Shown: one piece after another, positions 7,352 to 20,619 of the stretch | How the letters are laid out: each line of letters begins with the position of its first letter | Numbering within the stretch: position 1 is the stretch's first letter | Sequence record: PQ462667.1 | Source: Escherichia phage HMD-P3 | Reading direction: 5' to 3' (one strand) | Length of the DNA: 64,000 nt | The notes under the pieces: model-generated | Database searches by the model: none | What the model saw: the letters and a program-made list of their open reading frames with translations, nothing else | Told to the model about the DNA's origin: nothing | Program-made: the position numbers and the translations under genes

Positions 7352-8189
7352 TCATGAGTTTGGAGTTGGGTAAACTTTTATACAACCTTGACTTAATAGA
7401 TACTCTTCTGCCTCTACAGCTTTAATGTTGAATATCTCTTTTGCTCCATCGAATTTATAATGGTTAGCAAATTTATTTTCGAAAAATTTATGTGCTTGAT
7501 GTTCTATTCTGTAAGCGAGTTCTTTCGATCCTTTTAATGATACGGCGACCACCGAGATCTACACCTGAGGAAACACTCTTTCCCTACACGACGCTCTTCC
7601 GATCTTGATGTTCTATTCTGTAAGCGAGTTCTTTCGATCCTTTCTTATATTGGTAGATACCAAATACTTCCATATCTTCGAAACCCGGCACACGCAATTT
7701 ATCATACTCTAGATTCTTAAACCTTTGATGTGGCTCTCTAGAGACTCCAATCTTTGTCTTTAATTTTTTCCTAGACTGATCTTTATTAGAGAAGATATAG
7801 AGATATGTGGGAAATTGAACATCTTCATCTACTTCTGGCTTCTCGACAGGTGTATTAAGGTTGCTTTCTCTAGCACACTGTAAACAGCCGTGCCCATCTA
7901 GGTGGGATCTAGCAGTTTGCATAAAGTATCCTTTATGCTTATAGCACCATATCTCTACTAACTGATTGGCTGTCTTATAATTAACTTTTTCATACCCATA
8001 TTCTTCTTTCTGGACTTTTAAAGCTTTCCTAATAAAGATAAGGTTTAAGGCCTCTTGTTGGAAGTCAGGGTGAAGTTGCCTAATCTTCGTTATATTAGTA
8101 GAGCCATTTGACTTCAAAAAGTTTTTAAGAGGAAACCTCCGGGCTTCCTCTCGTAGCTTTTTATTAATTTCAGTACGTAAATCATCCAT
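7352..8189 (-). CDS. HNH-like (Cys/His-rich) homing-endonuclease-family protein, reading frame broken by the adapter artefact
   Basis: Track ORFs 7352..7552 and 7584..8189 share the duplicated peptide KGSKELAYRIEHQ; paralog of 10216..10659; motif CYKHKGYF...TARSHLDGHGCLQC. Confidence 0.6.
7536..7605 (+). other. Illumina P5/TruSeq adapter with 8-nt index CTGAGGAA (sequencing artefact)
   Basis: Exact AATGATACGGCGACCACCGAGATCTACAC-CTGAGGAA-ACACTCTTTCCCTACACGACGCTCTTCCGATCT; flanked by a direct duplication of about 40 bp (7494-7535 and 7606-7645). Confidence 0.95.
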
Positions 8190-8907
8190 CTTTATTAACC
8201 TTCAGAATAACCCCTTTTGACGCCATGAAAAGGAATGTTGCTAGGTAAGATGACTCGGAATTTAGCGCAGAATAATCTACACTTCCCCTAGGTCTAGTTT
8301 CTTGTTTAGTGTCAAGAATTGTTGATATATCAAACTTAACAGACTTAGCAACTTTTCTAGCTTGTTCAGGATCACGTAAAACTTCAAAGTGAGCAGCATC
8401 TAGAATAGGGTTAGATGTTGTTGAGTCATCAACTATACTTAGATGAACCTGCGCAAGTGTAGATACGATTCCTAGCTTTAATTCAGATAGAGAAGAATAA
8501 GGTGGTTCTACTTTCTTTGTAAGCCTAGGGAGATGATCGTATTTACATTGCTTTTGAGGAATCATCAAAATGTTAGGATAACATTCTAGACATGACTTTG
8601 CATTTCCTTCTTTAAAATACGGTAGTTCTTTATCTGCAAAGACGTGGAATGAGTCTGCTGAAAATCCTTTAATAGTAGGATCAACAGTTTGAATCAGACG
8701 ACGTAAACTAATATAAGAAGGTGCTAGAGTAACTTCTCCTGCATCTTTATTATATTTAGGTTGTCCACTAGCATTAATATATGCAGGATAAAACTCTGCA
8801 CAAAATGCTACTGCATGTGCCTCTAACTCATTAAGCTGAGAAACACATTTCCCATTACAAGCTCTAGCTAACTTAATAATCTCTGCTAAATTCTTTTTAA
8901 TACTCAT
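8182..8907 (-). CDS. hypothetical protein (241 aa)
   Basis: Long AT-rich ORF, start/stop overlap with neighbours. Confidence 0.6.
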   Translation of the reverse strand: MSIKKNLAEIIKLARACNGKCVSQLNELEAHAVAFCAEFYPAYINASGQPKYNKDAGEVTLAPSYISLRRLIQTVDPTIKGFSADSFHVFADKELPYFKEGNAKSCLECYPNILMIPQKQCKYDHLPRLTKKVEPPYSSLSELKLGIVSTLAQVHLSIVDDSTTSNPILDAAHFEVLRDPEQARKVAKSVKFDISTILDTKQETRPRGSVDYSALNSESSYLATFLFMASKGVILKVNKDG

Positions 8908-17304: not shown

Positions 17305-17718
17305 TTAAACTAGTTCTACATGACCGCCATCATAGGTACCACGTTTTATTTCGTCGTGATAGTCTCCCGAAGCATTCCAATCAGCACCAAAACGAAGTTT
17401 AATACCTAGTTCTTTACCTGCTTGTTCAAAAGCCTTTTTAACTGCCCAAAATGCTTCTAAGTCGTTCCAATCAATCTTGCCATTAATGTATGGAGCAAAA
17501 TCAAGAGCATCCCCAGTAATATGCTTGCTTTTACTAGGATCTTTTAAAAATGAAGTACCATTAGCAATATTCTGGGCACTTTGTGCTACTGTACGAATAC
17601 CTTGTACGATCGTAAAATCATATGGAGATAATTCTAAAGCTCTACGAGCTACTTTTTGTAACTCTGGCTTAACAGTAGCTAACTGTTTTTCGCTATTTTT
17701 ACCAAATTTAAAACTCAT
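17305..17718 (-). CDS. lys: endolysin, L-alanyl-D-glutamate peptidase (M15 zinc peptidase, T5 Lys-like)
   Basis: 137 aa; M15 H...D...H signature (HITGDALD...GGHVE); agrees with my recollection of the T5 endolysin. Confidence 0.85.
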   Translation of the reverse strand: MSFKFGKNSEKQLATVKPELQKVARRALELSPYDFTIVQGIRTVAQSAQNIANGTSFLKDPSKSKHITGDALDFAPYINGKIDWNDLEAFWAVKKAFEQAGKELGIKLRFGADWNASGDYHDEIKRGTYDGGHVELV

Positions 17719-18371
17719 ATTGATCTACCTAAAGATCTCTGTTGTGGGGAACAGAGCTTTGTTAAGTACTCGTTAAATTTCTCAGAATCGGCTGCATCTA
17801 CAGGATTATCTTTCCAAGCAATACCAATATATCCAGCATAGATATTGTTTAGATTGAAATACGGACAAGTGTATATGTAATTAAAAGTAACGTTCTTAAA
17901 CGCAGGTATATTTAACCCCATGTATTTATTTACTTTTACACTTAAGTCCGAGGCGTAGTTAAAGCCGTCTAAGTGTCGTCTATATAGCTCAGACGTTTTA
18001 TTTACTGCTTTATCGGCCAAGTCAGCCCTATCTAATTGCGCATTGCTTTCCCATGCAATAATGTTAGAATAATCATTAACGGCTTCGGGTTTATACTTGA
18101 CAACAAAAACAGCATCCGCACCCGTTTGGGAAAAAAGAACCATGCTCTTTTCTCTAGCTACGTTAGGAAAATTACTTATCCTTTGAGTTTGAACATCCTG
18201 TAGAACCGCAGACGTGGAGAAAGTCTTTAAGAATGACATCACCTCACTAGTATTACTAACAAATAAGAAAATAATGACAGCAACTAAGATAGTTAGCAGA
18301 CGTTTAAGAAGCGATGCTGGATCTTTCGCTTCTTGGAGCAGTACCGTTAATAATTGTAAGAACTTTTCCAA
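17715..18371 (-). CDS. putative holin
   Basis: Immediately upstream of and overlapping the endolysin; transmembrane helix ILVAVIIFLFV. Confidence 0.5.
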   Translation of the reverse strand: MEKFLQLLTVLLQEAKDPASLLKRLLTILVAVIIFLFVSNTSEVMSFLKTFSTSAVLQDVQTQRISNFPNVAREKSMVLFSQTGADAVFVVKYKPEAVNDYSNIIAWESNAQLDRADLADKAVNKTSELYRRHLDGFNYASDLSVKVNKYMGLNIPAFKNVTFNYIYTCPYFNLNNIYAGYIGIAWKDNPVDAADSEKFNEYLTKLCSPQQRSLGRSI

Positions 18372-18527
18372 TTGTAACCTCCTCTAACCAGTACCATTAT
18401 ACTAATTTTGGAGGAAAATTACAATGTGTTTTTAAAGATCACTTCTGGAGCATAAAATTTTGTCGTTGTCAAGAAGAATTTTAGATAAAAGAAAAGCCAG
18501 GGTCGTTAAACCCTGGCTTAAAACTAC

Positions 18528-19127
18528 TTACTCTTTGTTGTGCTCCTCGAATTGAGGTAACTGGGCTTTATTATATTGCTCAGATCGATATTTTGCCAAG
18601 ATTTCAATACGCTTATGGATTTCTTTGCTATCTAGATAGATATTTTTATTGTCTTTTACCATCTCGTCGATTTCGTCTATTGAGAAGAACGGATAGTAGA
18701 CATCTAGCATCATATCTTCTACGAACTTGTTGTAAGATTCATAGGCTTTCTTGATTTCTTGACCCTTCTCACAGAATCCGCCAGAGAACGTGTGTCCCAT
18801 TAGCGTAGCATGTGGATGTACTACCCACCCATGGCAGGATAGGAAAATTGTGCAGTAAGCAGAAGCACTAGGACCAACCAGATGCCCTATAACTGTTCCA
18901 CGGCAATTAGCAATTAAGTTAGATAACTGTGCAGCAGTATCAACATAACCACCCGGGCCATTAATCATCAGATTAATTTCGTCATCCTCATGTGCCTGCA
19001 TAAGTACCATTGATAAATCACGGTATTCATCCGGCGGGCCTAATTCTTCATCAAAGAAAAAGGTATACTCGTTAGATTGGCGAATGGAGTGAAACAGGTT
19101 AGTCTTTTCTTCTTTTTTATTAGTCAT
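18528..19127 (-). CDS. ClpP-like serine protease
   Basis: NGPGG motif and GPSAS serine-containing segment resembling ClpP. Confidence 0.5.
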   Translation of the reverse strand: MTNKKEEKTNLFHSIRQSNEYTFFFDEELGPPDEYRDLSMVLMQAHEDDEINLMINGPGGYVDTAAQLSNLIANCRGTVIGHLVGPSASAYCTIFLSCHGWVVHPHATLMGHTFSGGFCEKGQEIKKAYESYNKFVEDMMLDVYYPFFSIDEIDEMVKDNKNIYLDSKEIHKRIEILAKYRSEQYNKAQLPQFEEHNKE

Positions 19128-19139
19128 AGCGATCCTTGA

Positions 19140-19892
19140 TTATCCAACTAGTGGTTCTAGCTCTAAGTCACAGAAGTTATAAACTTCTAGTTTAAGATTA
19201 TTGATACCATCGAATTTATTAACTAATTCGTGAGTAATATATTTTGCAGGAATACCACTTTCAGATGGATGATCTGATTTAATAGTGAACTTCTGCTCAG
19301 CGGGTACTACATTTACTATCAAAGAATCCATATCTAAATGGTTTGTTTCTCTGAGTAACTCTCCTTCGTTGGGGAATCTAACATCTGTTATTACGGCGAC
19401 GTCTGGGTCGTCTTTAGCGATGGATTGCTCCAGAATTATGAGCCAAATGCGTTCATGCACCAGCTGCCTTCCTAGCTCTGTCCCTACGAGCTGTAACATT
19501 TTTCTCGGAGAAATAAATAAACTATAAAGTCCGTCTTCTTTATTCTCTGAGATAAGTTGTTGAGGATTAAGGTATTTTTCCTCAAAAATAGGCCAAACGT
19601 ACGAGAAGTCTTCAAACTTATCGATACCGTACTTAAACCACACATCTCTGGCTCGCTCCAATTGAGATTGTGTGACCGTAAACCATTGGTCAATCTCTTT
19701 TCCCCTGCGCTCTCCTAGAAACTCTGGAGTTACACCGAGGATTACGGATGCAAGTTCATAAACGGGCTTAGCAAAACTATAACGACGGGATAAACACGTT
19801 GGATACGTGTCATTACACCAATCGATAATTAATTTTGCAACGGTATCTTTTCCCGAACCAGCTTCACCATGTAAACCGACTAATACTGACAT
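19140..19892 (-). CDS. dnk: deoxynucleoside monophosphate kinase
   Basis: Walker A GEAGSGKDT at the N-terminus; 250 aa as for T5 dNMP kinase. Confidence 0.75.
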   Translation of the reverse strand: MSVLVGLHGEAGSGKDTVAKLIIDWCNDTYPTCLSRRYSFAKPVYELASVILGVTPEFLGERRGKEIDQWFTVTQSQLERARDVWFKYGIDKFEDFSYVWPIFEEKYLNPQQLISENKEDGLYSLFISPRKMLQLVGTELGRQLVHERIWLIILEQSIAKDDPDVAVITDVRFPNEGELLRETNHLDMDSLIVNVVPAEQKFTIKSDHPSESGIPAKYITHELVNKFDGINNLKLEVYNFCDLELEPLVG

Positions 19893-20245
19893 TAATCTTT
19901 CCTATTGTTAATTGGTGGATAATATACTAAACAACGTTTTTCTTGCAAATCCTGACGATAGAAGCAAACCATACCTGTCAGTCGTGAAATATATGAATAT
20001 TCTGCCTCACGGCATTTTGCCAACATATTCCAATCTTTATATGGTACAACAACTACTACGCCATCTTCTCCATTTGTAGCTAATTTCTTTTCAAACTTAA
20101 AGTCAAAGCTACAAGGTTGGAGTCCTTTAGGCCAATCTACATGAGCTGTTGGTAACTCATGTGAGGGTTCTGGCTTTATTTCTTGCGCACAGCCTGTGAT
20201 TGTGATTGCGGCTGCGAGCAGTATTCCACACTTCCAGAAAGACAT
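19892..20245 (-). CDS. putative o-spanin (outer-membrane lipoprotein, Rz1-like)
   Basis: Signal peptide with lipobox ITGC; 5' end overlaps the 3' end of the upstream gene by 70 nt. Confidence 0.5.
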   Translation of the reverse strand: MSFWKCGILLAAAITITGCAQEIKPEPSHELPTAHVDWPKGLQPCSFDFKFEKKLATNGEDGVVVVVPYKDWNMLAKCREAEYSYISRLTGMVCFYRQDLQEKRCLVYYPPINNRKD

Positions 20246-20619
20246 GCTAATCTCTCCTCAAATTCTTTACTCTGCTTTTTAGCATTTAATGTTACCAATC
20301 CAGGCTTTGCAGCTATAATGTCTTGACGACTAAGTGCTTTATCAAGCTGACTAATCTTTTTGTCTAGATCTGCTTGCGAAATATTATTCATTGTGAAATA
20401 CTGATTCATTCTAGTCTCACGAAGTTCGCTTTCAGCTTTCACTTTATTAAGTGAAGTCTCTAGAGAAGAAATCTTTTTAGTAGCTACCGCAAGATCTCCC
20501 GCCAAAGTCTCCACTTTATTTACTAAGTGATAAGCACCGAATCCGATGCCTATCGCTAGACCTGCTCCCAGGATATACCACTTACCTTTCCATAGAGAAC
20601 CGATAAAGTTTTTTATCAT
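20176..20619 (-). CDS. putative i-spanin (Rz-like)
   Basis: N-terminal transmembrane helix YILGAGLAIGIGFGAY, then coiled coil. Confidence 0.5.
   Translation of the reverse strand: MIKNFIGSLWKGKWYILGAGLAIGIGFGAYHLVNKVETLAGDLAVATKKISSLETSLNKVKAESELRETRMNQYFTMNNISQADLDKKISQLDKALSRQDIIAAKPGLVTLNAKKQSKEFEERLACLSGSVEYCSQPQSQSQAVRKK

What the first reader, a model, noticed from the sequence alone, without database searches (positions are those of the whole stretch)
18528..19127. ClpP-like protease gene in the early region, away from any structural genes
The product has ClpP-like motifs (NGPGG; serine-containing GPSAS segment; size about 22 kDa) but sits among early metabolic genes, not next to a portal or capsid gene as a prohead protease would. 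It may target host or phage regulatory proteins.
Basis: partly seen in the sequence, partly recalled or inferred. Interest (0 to 1): 0.35.

Follow-up and report, generated by a model that had tools for sequence, protein, structure and literature searches.

The report
T5-type non-capsid ClpP-like protease gene
This is the already-annotated phage T5 gene T5.042, a ClpP-shaped serine protease made with the early genes and unrelated to the phage's real capsid-maturation protease; nobody knows what it cuts, and in T5-type phages one of its three catalytic residues has changed.

Summary
The ORF is real: 18528-19127, minus strand, 199 aa, 23.0 kDa. The window is a T5-like phage, collinear with T5 from about 3 kb onward, covering the pre-early and early regions.

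The gene is the orthologue of T5.042, labelled 'ATP-dependent (Clp) protease' in hundreds of GenBank records. It passes Pfam CLP_protease. The AlphaFold model (pLDDT 91.8) matches solved ClpP structures.

It is not the prohead protease. T5 has a separate S78-family protease (T5.150) between the portal and capsid genes, about 81 kb away. Relatives in five other phage contexts also lie among nucleotide-metabolism or replication genes, never beside head genes in the stretches examined.

The protein belongs to a large phage-specific clade (PHROG 1827; 509 clusters at E<=1e-30). It falls far below the curated cut-offs for bacterial ClpP and for ClpP-related head proteases.

Ser89 and His112 are invariant. 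The third triad position is Asp or Glu in most of the family but Asn162 in all T5-type members, which are under strong purifying selection (dN/dS 0.06-0.13). The ClpX/ClpA docking pocket and the N-terminal pore elements are not conserved, so the 'ATP-dependent' label is unsupported.

Substrates are unknown. The gene is known and ordinary as an annotation; its function is an open, modestly interesting question.

The parts
18528..19127 (-). CDS of the ClpP-like protease (199 aa), orthologue of T5.042
   Evidence: ORF list. Pfam PF00574. PHROG 1827. 98% DNA identity to annotated Tequintavirus records. T5 annotation.
18948..18962 (-). Codons for NGPGG (residues 56-60). Gly60 aligns with the ClpP oxyanion-hole Gly68.
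   Evidence: G59 and G60 are invariant in 181/181 family sequences. Coordinates.
18861..18863 (-). Codon TCT for Ser89, the predicted nucleophile (aligned with E. coli ClpP Ser97)
   Evidence: Ser in 181/181 family sequences and in 21/21 cellular ClpPs. Coordinates.
18792..18794 (-). Codon CAC for His112, the predicted general base (aligned with E. coli ClpP His122)
   Evidence: His in 180/181 family sequences. Coordinates.
18642..18644 (-). Codon AAT for Asn162, at the position of the triad Asp (E. coli ClpP Asp171)
   Evidence: Across the family this position is D 152, E 17, N 8. Asn occurs only in the T5-type clade. The AAT codon is fixed in 15 orthologues.
18768..18770 (-). Codon for Glu120, replacing a Gly conserved in most of the family. 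Together with Tyr91 (18855-18857) it marks the same clade as Asn162.
   Evidence: Clade comparison.
19133..19137 (-). Shine-Dalgarno AAGGA, 5 nt before the ATG. Only 12 nt separate the dNMP-kinase stop codon from this start codon.
   Evidence: Read from the sequence. ORF coordinates.
18494..18519 (-). Intrinsic-terminator hairpin (11-bp stem, 6 G-C pairs, T run) starting 9 nt after the stop codon. It ends the spanin-dnk-protease transcription unit.
   Evidence: Terminator scan. T5 carries an annotated terminator at the equivalent place, followed by the holin promoter.
19140..19892 (-). Context: dNMP kinase (dnk), immediately upstream on the same strand
   Evidence: Pfam DNMK. T5.043 annotation.
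19892..20619 (-). Context: two overlapping Rz-like spanin genes upstream of dnk
   Evidence: PHROG 812 and PHROG 739.
17305..18371 (-). Context: T-type holin (17715-18371) and M15 endolysin (17305-17718), downstream and beyond the terminator
   Evidence: Pfam Phage_holin_T at E=1.8e-112. Peptidase_M15_4 matched only weakly (23.2 bits, below its 25-bit cut-off). T5.041 and T5.040 annotation.

Best explanation
The gene encodes the T5.042-type protein: a non-structural serine peptidase with the ClpP fold, from a large clade found only in phages (PHROG 1827). It is co-transcribed with dNMP kinase and the spanin genes in the early region and has no part in capsid maturation.

Shown: the ClpP fold; an invariant Ser-His pair and oxyanion glycines; strong purifying selection; a separate S78 prohead protease elsewhere in T5; and placement of relatives in nucleotide-metabolism or replication clusters in several unrelated large lytic phages.

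Inferred: it assembles into ClpP-like rings and degrades peptides or unfolded proteins in the infected cytoplasm during the early to middle phase, either as host takeover or amino-acid recycling, or as removal of particular host or phage proteins. It probably does this without docking ClpX or ClpA in the canonical way, because the hydrophobic docking pocket and the N-terminal pore elements are not conserved.

In T5-type phages the triad is Ser89-His112-Asn162, accompanied by Glu120 and Tyr91. Activity in this lineage is therefore probably attenuated or dependent on assembly state. The substrates are unknown.
For: Fold: the AF2 model has mean pLDDT 91.8. Its best PDB matches are ClpP structures, with TM 0.59-0.74 over about 160 columns at 16-23% identity.

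Catalytic residues: Ser89 is present in 181/181 family sequences, His112 in 180/181, and G59/G60 in 181/181.

Selection: dN/dS is 0.06-0.13 among Tequintavirus-type orthologues.

Not the head protease: T5.150 is a Peptidase_S78 protein lying between the portal and the major head protein at 103 kb, whereas T5.042 lies at 21 kb. The two proteins share no similarity. The window holds no late genes.

Clade: 509 50%-identity clusters score E<=1e-30 and match full length. In BFVD a distinct structural group with TM 0.76-0.86 stands apart from generic ClpP-like viral proteins at about 0.6.

Context in other phages:
- DHFR and recombination protein in a Schizotequatrovirus.
- Early and metabolic genes in Pakpunavirus.
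- PhoH and Dam in Barbavirus.
- gp32 and clamp loader in a metagenomic contig.
- PhoH and ribonucleotide reductase in another contig.
- The block spanin-DNMK-protease-T holin-endolysin is retained down to 34% identity.

Docking features: at the pocket positions, 21 cellular ClpPs are 81-100% large-hydrophobic (two of the positions checked, A52 and Y60, are not hydrophobic even in these). The phage family is 4-68%, and the query has N74, H82, H104, A178 and N52 at five of them. The N-terminus (residues 1-19) is modelled as coil and has no alignable ClpP pore motif.

Curated models: TIGR00493 clpP scores 15.2 bits against a cut-off of 308.6.

Transcription unit: a terminator follows the stop codon directly, as annotated in T5.
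Against: No biochemical or genetic data exist for any member in the searched literature.

The Asn at the triad position could mean very low activity. In Listeria ClpP1 the same Ser-His-Asn arrangement is inactive unless paired with ClpP2.

Oligomeric state could not be modelled here.

The docking-pocket argument rests on an alignment at about 18% identity and on pocket residue numbers recalled from the E. coli ClpP-ADEP literature. Some pocket positions remain hydrophobic in the query (M40, V41, M54, V84, V102).

The BF23 orthologue was detected by mass spectrometry in purified virions, which a purely cytoplasmic early enzyme would not predict.
Confidence: 0.6

Rival explanations
1. It is a genuine ClpP subunit, as the database label says. 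It forms a tetradecamer that docks the host ClpX or ClpA unfoldase and carries out ATP-dependent degradation of selected proteins.
For: It passes the Pfam CLP_protease gathering score. The fold is ClpP. Ser and His are invariant. Several pocket positions remain hydrophobic: M40, V41, M54, V84, V102.
Against: TIGR00493 scores 15.2 bits against a cut-off of 308.6, and every other NCBIfam ClpP model is also far below its cut-off. Five pocket positions are polar or small in the query, and the family as a whole is not hydrophobic there, unlike 21 cellular ClpPs. There is no conserved N-terminal pore or loop motif and no helix A in the model. The triad Asp is replaced by Asn.
Confidence: 0.12
2. It is a virion-associated or auxiliary head protease: a second maturation enzyme packaged into capsids, descended from ClpP-related prohead proteases.
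For: The closest curated families after PHROG 1827 and 5410 are head-maturation proteases: NCBIfam Clp_rel_HeadMat at E=2.4e-10 and PHROG 1684 at E=2.4e-20. The BF23 orthologue gave 3 peptides from purified virions, at an intensity similar to low-copy tail proteins. A long C-terminal helix with a variable charged tail recalls the targeting tails of prohead proteases (a resemblance from memory).
Against: It scores 40.6 bits against the 120-bit Clp_rel_HeadMat cut-off. It lies about 81 kb from the head genes, in an early unit with dnk. T5 already has an S78 protease beside its capsid gene. Relatives in other phages also sit in metabolic clusters. DHFR, another early enzyme, was found in the same virion preparation at higher intensity, which suggests carry-over.
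Confidence: 0.1
3. It behaves like Listeria ClpP1. It is an intrinsically inactive Ser-His-Asn heptamer that stacks on a host ClpP ring and so rewires or poisons host ClpXP/ClpAP.
For: It has the same triad variant (Ser-His-Asn) and the same lack of a chaperone-docking surface as LmClpP1, which becomes active only in the ClpP1/ClpP2 heterocomplex. The Asn is fixed and the gene is under purifying selection.
Against: Identity to E. coli ClpP is only about 18%, and the alignment shows a 3-residue deletion in the handle, the region that forms the ring-ring contact. Most of the family keeps Asp or Glu and so needs no partner. Hetero-oligomers could not be modelled with these tools.
Confidence: 0.08
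4. It is a lysis-timing factor that processes the holin, spanins or an antiholin.
For: The order spanin-dnk-protease-T holin-endolysin is kept in relatives with only 34-40% identity, even where the endolysin type differs (CHAP versus M15). It is also kept in a Vibrio T5-like phage.
Against: A terminator and a separate promoter lie between it and the holin. The protein has no evident signal or membrane segment on reading the sequence (not tested with a predictor) and is modelled as a soluble ClpP-fold protein. Family members in T4-like, Pakpuna-, Barba- and other phages have no lysis neighbours. The synteny may simply be inherited within one phage family.
Confidence: 0.05

Closest known systems
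Phage T5 gene T5.042 ('ATP-dependent protease', PHROG 1827) and its orthologues in Tequintavirus/Epseptimavirus genomes
   Same: Same gene. It is 96-99% identical at protein level. It has the same 600-nt length and the same neighbours (dnk upstream; terminator, holin and endolysin downstream).
   Different: Nothing of substance differs. The label was assigned by sequence similarity only, and a 2023 paper calls the function 'currently unknown'.
Bacterial ClpP (MEROPS S14; Pfam PF00574; TIGR00493), e.g. E. coli, S. aureus and T. thermophilus ClpP
   Same: Same fold. The Ser and His catalytic residues and the oxyanion glycines align. The size is similar, about 200 aa.
   Different: Identity is only 16-23%. 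It falls far below the equivalog cut-offs. It has Asn in place of the triad Asp. The docking pocket and N-terminal pore elements are not conserved. The alignment shows a 3-residue deletion in the handle and a family-specific YYPFF insertion, and the protein ends in a long C-terminal helix.
Listeria monocytogenes ClpP1
   Same: It has a Ser-His-Asn triad and no chaperone-binding site (compared).
   Different: LmClpP1 is a cellular paralogue that pairs with a closely related ClpP2. Here no related partner is encoded nearby, and host ClpP is only about 18% identical. Hetero-assembly is untested.
ClpP-related phage head maturation proteases (NCBIfam NF045542; PHROG 1684, 94, 2976)
   Same: They are the nearest curated relatives outside the protein's own PHROGs (1827 and 5410). 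They share the catalytic core over residues about 40-173.
   Different: The score is below cut-off (40.6 against 120 bits). The gene is not beside portal or capsid genes. T5's actual prohead protease is an unrelated S78 enzyme.

Membership tests
ClpP proteolytic subunit (S14; PF00574 / TIGR00493) | ClpP fold | tested here: met
   The AF2 model (pLDDT 91.8) matches solved ClpP structures with Foldseek probability 1.00 and TM 0.59-0.74.
ClpP proteolytic subunit (S14; PF00574 / TIGR00493) | Score above the curated family thresholds | tested here: inconclusive
   It passes Pfam PF00574 (32.6 against 20.2 bits). It fails the NCBIfam ClpP equivalog TIGR00493 (15.2 against 308.6) and all PRK ClpP models.
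ClpP proteolytic subunit (S14; PF00574 / TIGR00493) | Ser-His-Asp catalytic triad | tested here: not met
   Ser89 and His112 are present and invariant. The Asp position is Asn162 in this protein and in all T5-type orthologues, while the rest of the family has Asp (152) or Glu (17).
ClpP proteolytic subunit (S14; PF00574 / TIGR00493) | Hydrophobic surface pocket that docks the IGF/LGF loops of ClpX/ClpA (pocket residue list recalled from the E. coli ClpP literature) | tested here: not met
   Pocket columns are 81-100% large-hydrophobic in 21 cellular ClpPs (except A52 and Y60) and 4-68% in 179 family members. The query has N52, N74, H82, H104 and A178. The test is alignment-based only.
ClpP proteolytic subunit (S14; PF00574 / TIGR00493) | Conserved N-terminal axial loop and helix A that gate the pore | tested here: not met
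   Residues 1-19 are coil at pLDDT 61-84, and the first structural element is strand 20-25. The family N-termini are variable and mostly gaps against the E. coli N-terminus.
ClpP proteolytic subunit (S14; PF00574 / TIGR00493) | Double-heptamer barrel and ATPase-dependent proteolysis | not testable with these tools
   No multimer modelling or assay is available.
ClpP-related head maturation protease (NF045542 / PHROG 1684) | Score above the family cut-off | tested here: not met
   NF045542 scores 40.6 bits against a 120-bit cut-off. PHROG 1684 gives E=2.4e-20, against 1.6e-89 for PHROG 1827.
ClpP-related head maturation protease (NF045542 / PHROG 1684) | Gene lies in the head module, between portal and major capsid protein | tested here: not met
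   The gene lies between dnk and the holin. There are no late-gene homologues in the window. In T5 the head module is about 81 kb away and has its own S78 protease.
ClpP-related head maturation protease (NF045542 / PHROG 1684) | Present in proheads or virions | tested here: inconclusive
   Literature only. The BF23 orthologue gave 3 peptides in purified virions, but DHFR was detected in the same preparation.
T5.042 family (PHROG 1827) | Full-length profile match | tested here: met
   E=1.6e-89, with residues 1-198 matched to profile positions 5-201 of 202.
T5.042 family (PHROG 1827) | Demerecviridae synteny: spanin - dNMP kinase - protease - holin - endolysin | tested here: met
   for the window and T5. 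The same order holds in L090 and L091.
SppA / S49 and NfeD-type Ser-Lys peptidases of the same clan | Family profile match, and a Ser-Lys dyad instead of Ser-His | tested here: not met
   There is no S49 hit. NfeD1b_N scores only 18.5 bits against a 40-bit cut-off. The general base aligned with ClpP is an invariant His.

The most novel reading that the evidence does not exclude
The T5-type protein, with its fixed Ser-His-Asn triad, eroded chaperone-docking surface and lack of gating N-terminus, is a conditional protease. On this reading it is either activated by stacking on a host ClpP ring, so hijacking or poisoning host ClpXP/ClpAP as Listeria ClpP1 depends on ClpP2. Or it is an ungated, ATP-independent ClpP-like barrel that large lytic phages use to break down host proteins alongside their nucleotide-scavenging enzymes.
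Probability: 0.15. Interest if true: 0.65.

Novelty: already known. Interest (0 to 1): 0.3.

Why it matters
T5-like phages are model organisms and common phage-therapy and biocontrol candidates. This gene is conserved in the hundreds of T5-type genomes that matched it here, yet its label ('ATP-dependent Clp protease proteolytic subunit') has never been tested. The same clade recurs next to nucleotide-metabolism and replication genes in many unrelated large lytic phages, which points to a general but unstudied proteolytic step in host takeover. Host ClpP- and Lon-dependent proteolysis also controls several toxin-antitoxin and abortive-infection defences. A phage-encoded ClpP-like enzyme could therefore bear on phage-defence interplay. 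For annotation practice, the analysis argues for naming it 'ClpP-like serine peptidase, non-structural' rather than 'ATP-dependent' or 'head maturation protease'.

Tried and rejected
1. Prohead protease: rejected on gene location, on the separate S78 enzyme in T5, and on the lack of similarity between the two proteins.

2. Protease-holin fusion in Vibrio phage D25 (320-aa homologue directly abutting the endolysin): rejected. The extra 120 residues are an acidic, low-complexity tail with no evident membrane segment on reading the sequence, and the upstream ORF looks spanin-like.

3. Glu120 as a relocated acidic triad residue compensating for D162N: not supported statistically. The Y91/E120/N162 combination is a single clade event. 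Glu120 also occurs with Asp162 in three other sequences (P0024, P0035, P0036).

4. A nearby Asp (D159) as a substitute: rejected. That position is E, H or N in other Asn-type orthologues.

5. Anti-defence or defence homology: no PADLOC match.

6. Phage-encoded unfoldase partner: the only AAA+ neighbour seen (L088) is a gp44-type clamp loader.

7. Literature: seven full-text searches found no functional study (one search failed on a term that was too short). One genome paper asserts 'degradation of host regulatory proteins' but cites only a review on lambda.

8. Multimer modelling was not possible with the tools.

Full report
**Observation**

The minus-strand ORF at 18528-19127 is real. It runs from ATG to stop and encodes 199 aa, with a mass of 22,996 Da and pI 5.1. 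An AAGGA ribosome-binding site lies 5 nt upstream, and only 12 nt separate the start codon from the stop of the preceding gene. G+C content is 39.7%, against 38.9% for the window, so nothing suggests recent foreign origin.

**What the window is**

A 4-kb stretch around the gene is 95-98% identical to many Tequintavirus genomes: 453 records match, and 427 of them cover at least 80% of the query. The window is collinear with phage T5 from about 3.1 kb onward. This covers the pre-early and early regions.

The gene is the orthologue of T5.042, annotated in the T5 reference as 'ATP-dependent protease, identified by sequence similarity'. The neighbours were confirmed with profiles:
- M15-type endolysin at 17305-17718, a weak Pfam match below its cut-off but annotated as endolysin in T5.
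- T4 T-type holin at 17715-18371.
- dNMP kinase at 19140-19892.
- Two Rz-like spanins at 19892-20619.

A strong terminator hairpin lies at 18519-18494, directly after the stop codon. It matches the annotated T5 terminator, which separates T5.042 from the holin promoter. The gene is therefore the last cistron of a unit comprising spanins, dnk and protease. It is not part of the holin-endolysin unit.

**Protein identity**

- Pfam CLP_protease: E=9.1e-8, 32.6 bits against a gathering score of 20.2.
- PHROG 1827 'ATP-dependent protease': E=1.6e-89, full length.
- PDB sequence search: only ClpPs at significant E-values (best 5.4e-5; one unrelated chain at E=0.4).
- AlphaFold2 on a 49-sequence alignment: a confident model with mean pLDDT 91.8 and pTM 0.85.
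- Foldseek against PDB: the best matches are ClpP structures from Thermus, Listeria, Staphylococcus, E. coli and Mycobacterium. TM-scores are 0.59-0.74 over about 160 columns, at 16-23% identity.

The refutation test 'non-protease fold' therefore fails. The fold is ClpP.

**Not the prohead protease**

In T5 the head module lies at about 101-108 kb. It contains T5.150, annotated as head maturation protease, between the portal/decoration genes and the major head protein. T5.150 is a Pfam Peptidase_S78 protein with no detectable similarity to the window protein. That module is about 81 kb from T5.042.

The window itself has no homologue of the T5 capsid, S78 protease, portal, terminase or tail-tube proteins. 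NCBIfam's ClpP-related head-maturation model is the best NCBIfam hit, but it scores only 40.6 bits against a 120-bit cut-off.

**A large phage-specific clade**

A profile search of 1.84 billion cluster representatives found 509 clusters at E<=1e-30. The 150 best listed nearly all match almost full length. In the word-indexed search there is a clear gap between this family (E<=2e-29) and cellular ClpPs (E>=2e-9). In the viral structure library, about 19 proteins from diverse large phages match at TM 0.76-0.86. Scores then drop to about 0.6 for generic ClpP-like viral proteins.

tblastn finds family members in 1,313 phage records. These include T5-like phages of Salmonella, Escherichia, Klebsiella, Pectobacterium, Proteus and Vibrio. 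They also include KVP40-like jumbo T4-type phages, Pseudomonas Pakpunavirus, Rheinheimera Barbavirus, Pseudoalteromonas, Acinetobacter and others.

**Genomic context of relatives**

In every case examined, the gene sits among early, nucleotide-metabolism or replication genes. No head gene appeared in the stretches examined.

| Phage or contig | Neighbours |
|---|---|
| Schizotequatrovirus PVA23 | DHFR upstream, recombination protein downstream |
| Pakpunavirus PaoP5 | Small early ORFs, tRNAs, dCMP deaminase, DNA ligase, NAMPT, PRPP synthetase |
| Barbavirus | PhoH upstream, Dam methylase downstream |
| Alteromonas phage V22 | PhoH-like gene listed immediately before it |
| Metagenomic contig L088 | gp32 upstream, gp44-type clamp loader immediately downstream |
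| Metagenomic contig L041 | PhoH upstream, ribonucleotide reductase downstream |
| Metagenomic contig L040 | DNA ligase nearby |

Within T5-like lineages the order spanin, dNMP kinase, protease, T-holin, endolysin is retained down to 34-40% identity. It holds even where the endolysin type changes from M15 to CHAP. It also holds, with variations, in Vibrio phage D25.

T4-type phages have their own gp21 prohead protease. This is established knowledge and was not tested here.

**Catalytic machinery**

In an alignment of 181 family sequences with E. coli ClpP:
- Ser89 aligns with ClpP Ser97 and is present in 181/181.
- His112 aligns with His122 and is present in 180/181.
- G59 and G60, the oxyanion-hole region, are present in 181/181.

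The position of the triad Asp171 is Asp in 152 sequences, Glu in 17 and Asn in 8. The eight Asn sequences are exactly the window protein and its T5-type relatives, down to 56-58% identity (P0001-P0007). The Asn codon AAT is fixed in all 15 intact orthologous genes examined.

These genes are under strong purifying selection. dN/dS is 0.06-0.13, with dS up to about 1.0. The Asn form is therefore a maintained functional state and not decay.

Two further substitutions separate the same clade from its nine nearest Asp-type relatives. The first is Gly120 to Glu, in the Gly-rich strand after the catalytic His. The second is Ala91 to Tyr, two residues after the catalytic Ser. This combination represents a single evolutionary event. 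Glu120 also occurs together with Asp162 in three other family members. Compensation is therefore only a conjecture.

The known precedent for a Ser-His-Asn ClpP is Listeria ClpP1 (Ser98-His123-Asn172). It is an inactive heptamer that cannot bind AAA+ chaperones. It becomes active only when templated by a ClpP2 ring (PMC9257651).

**Is it 'ATP-dependent'?**

ClpP works with ClpX or ClpA through two features: a hydrophobic pocket on the ring face, and its N-terminal loops. The pocket residue list used here (L23, L48, F49, A52, Y60, Y62, F82, I90, M92, F112, L114, L189 of mature E. coli ClpP) is recalled from the ClpP-ADEP and ClpX literature.

The exceptions are A52 and Y60. The 179 phage-family sequences are only 4-68% hydrophobic there. 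The window protein has Asn52, Asn74, His82, His104 and Ala178 at five of them.

The N-terminal 19 residues are Lys/Glu-rich and are modelled as coil. They do not align with the ClpP pore motif. The model starts with the strand equivalent to ClpP beta-1, with no helix A. The NCBIfam ClpP equivalog TIGR00493 scores 15.2 bits against a cut-off of 308.6.

Other differences from ClpP are a 3-residue deletion in the handle region of the alignment, a family-specific YYPFF motif, and a long C-terminal helix (residues 167-189). After that helix comes a tail that varies across the family between short, acidic and Lys-rich.

The 'ATP-dependent' label is therefore not supported by sequence features. The alignment is at low identity, and several pocket positions remain hydrophobic, so canonical docking cannot be excluded.

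**Most likely mechanism**

Shown: a ClpP-fold protein with an intact Ser-His nucleophile pair, conserved under purifying selection. It is encoded in an early transcription unit and is not involved in the known capsid maturation pathway.

Inferred: it forms ClpP-like rings. It acts as a cytoplasmic peptidase during early to middle infection, probably without canonical ClpX/ClpA docking. Its repeated placement beside nucleotide-scavenging and replication genes fits a role in host takeover or resource recycling, or in clearing particular host or phage proteins. In T5-type phages the Asn triad implies reduced or assembly-dependent activity.

I put 0.6 on this overall picture. Confidence is about 0.9 for 'ClpP-fold, not the prohead protease' and much lower for the substrate class.

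**Rivals**

- Canonical ClpX/ClpA partner: 0.12.
- Virion-associated or auxiliary head protease: 0.10. It rests mainly on 3 peptides in purified BF23 virions, where DHFR was also found, and on the nearest curated relatives being head proteases.
- ClpP1-like partner of host ClpP: 0.08.
- Lysis regulator: 0.05.

**Literature**

Searches of the held library found no functional study of this gene. The BF23 paper explicitly calls its function 'currently unknown' (PMC10644984). One genome report asserts degradation of host regulatory proteins but cites only a review on lambda and host proteases (PMC12630848). The Alteromonas V22 paper lists it as 'protein catabolism' (PMC7289586). PADLOC gave no hit.

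**Verdict**

The feature is an already annotated, highly conserved T5 gene, so it is not novel as a finding.

What this analysis adds is modest:
- It delimits a large non-structural phage clade, distinct from both bacterial ClpP and ClpP-related head proteases.
- It shows recurrent placement of that clade in nucleotide-metabolism and replication clusters.
- It finds no sequence support for the 'ATP-dependent' label.
- It identifies a lineage-specific Ser-His-Asn active site under purifying selection.

Interest: 0.3.

Noticed in passing
window 18570-18599 (minus strand): A near-consensus sigma-70 promoter-like site (TTGGCA, 18-nt spacer, TATAAT; 11 of 12 matches) lies inside the 3' end of the protease gene, upstream of its terminator. 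A second site (10 of 12) at 18396-18424 matches the position of the annotated T5 holin promoter.
   Followed up: no
L027 (IMGVR_UViG_2974601769_000001), about 7945-8445: One otherwise 96%-identical orthologue is frameshifted exactly at the NKN motif (…VKDNKKYLSR*, 501 nt). This removes the Asn162 position and the C-terminal helix. It is either a sequencing error or a natural knockout.
   Followed up: partly
window 17305-20619; L090 and L091: The lysis genes are split. The spanins lie upstream of dnk and the protease in one unit, and the holin and endolysin lie in the next unit. This split order is kept in relatives with 34-40% protease identity, even when the endolysin type changes (M15 versus CHAP).
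   Followed up: partly
L084 (Barbavirus), L041 9313-10507, Alteromonas phage V22 (PMC7289586): A PhoH-like gene sits immediately upstream of the ClpP-like gene in three phage contexts that are not T5-like. This could be shared ancestry or a functional pairing.
   Followed up: no
L085 4899-5861 (Vibrio phage D25); P0032, P0034, P0036: C-terminal tails after the family's long helix vary widely. D25 has a 120-residue, strongly acidic tail. Several metagenomic members have Lys-rich tails.
   Followed up: no
T5 record 18303-18548 (T5.036) and SP01 HOS12_gp129; equivalent to about 15.7-15.9 kb in the window: A tiny early-region ORF (81 aa in T5, 46 aa in SP01) is labelled 'major head protein' in the RefSeq records. 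SP01 also labels a 112-aa early ORF 'capsid and scaffold protein'. These look like mis-annotations and could mislead anyone judging distance to structural genes.
   Followed up: no
Literature: BF23 virion proteome (PMC10644984): Purified BF23 virions gave peptides for the ClpP-like protein (ORF45) and a stronger signal for dihydrofolate reductase, both of them early-region enzymes. This could be carry-over or genuine packaging.
   Followed up: partly
L088 8537-11226: A T4-like metagenomic contig that carries the ClpP-like gene also encodes DUF444 and SpoVR homologues, which are unusual phage cargo.
   Followed up: no
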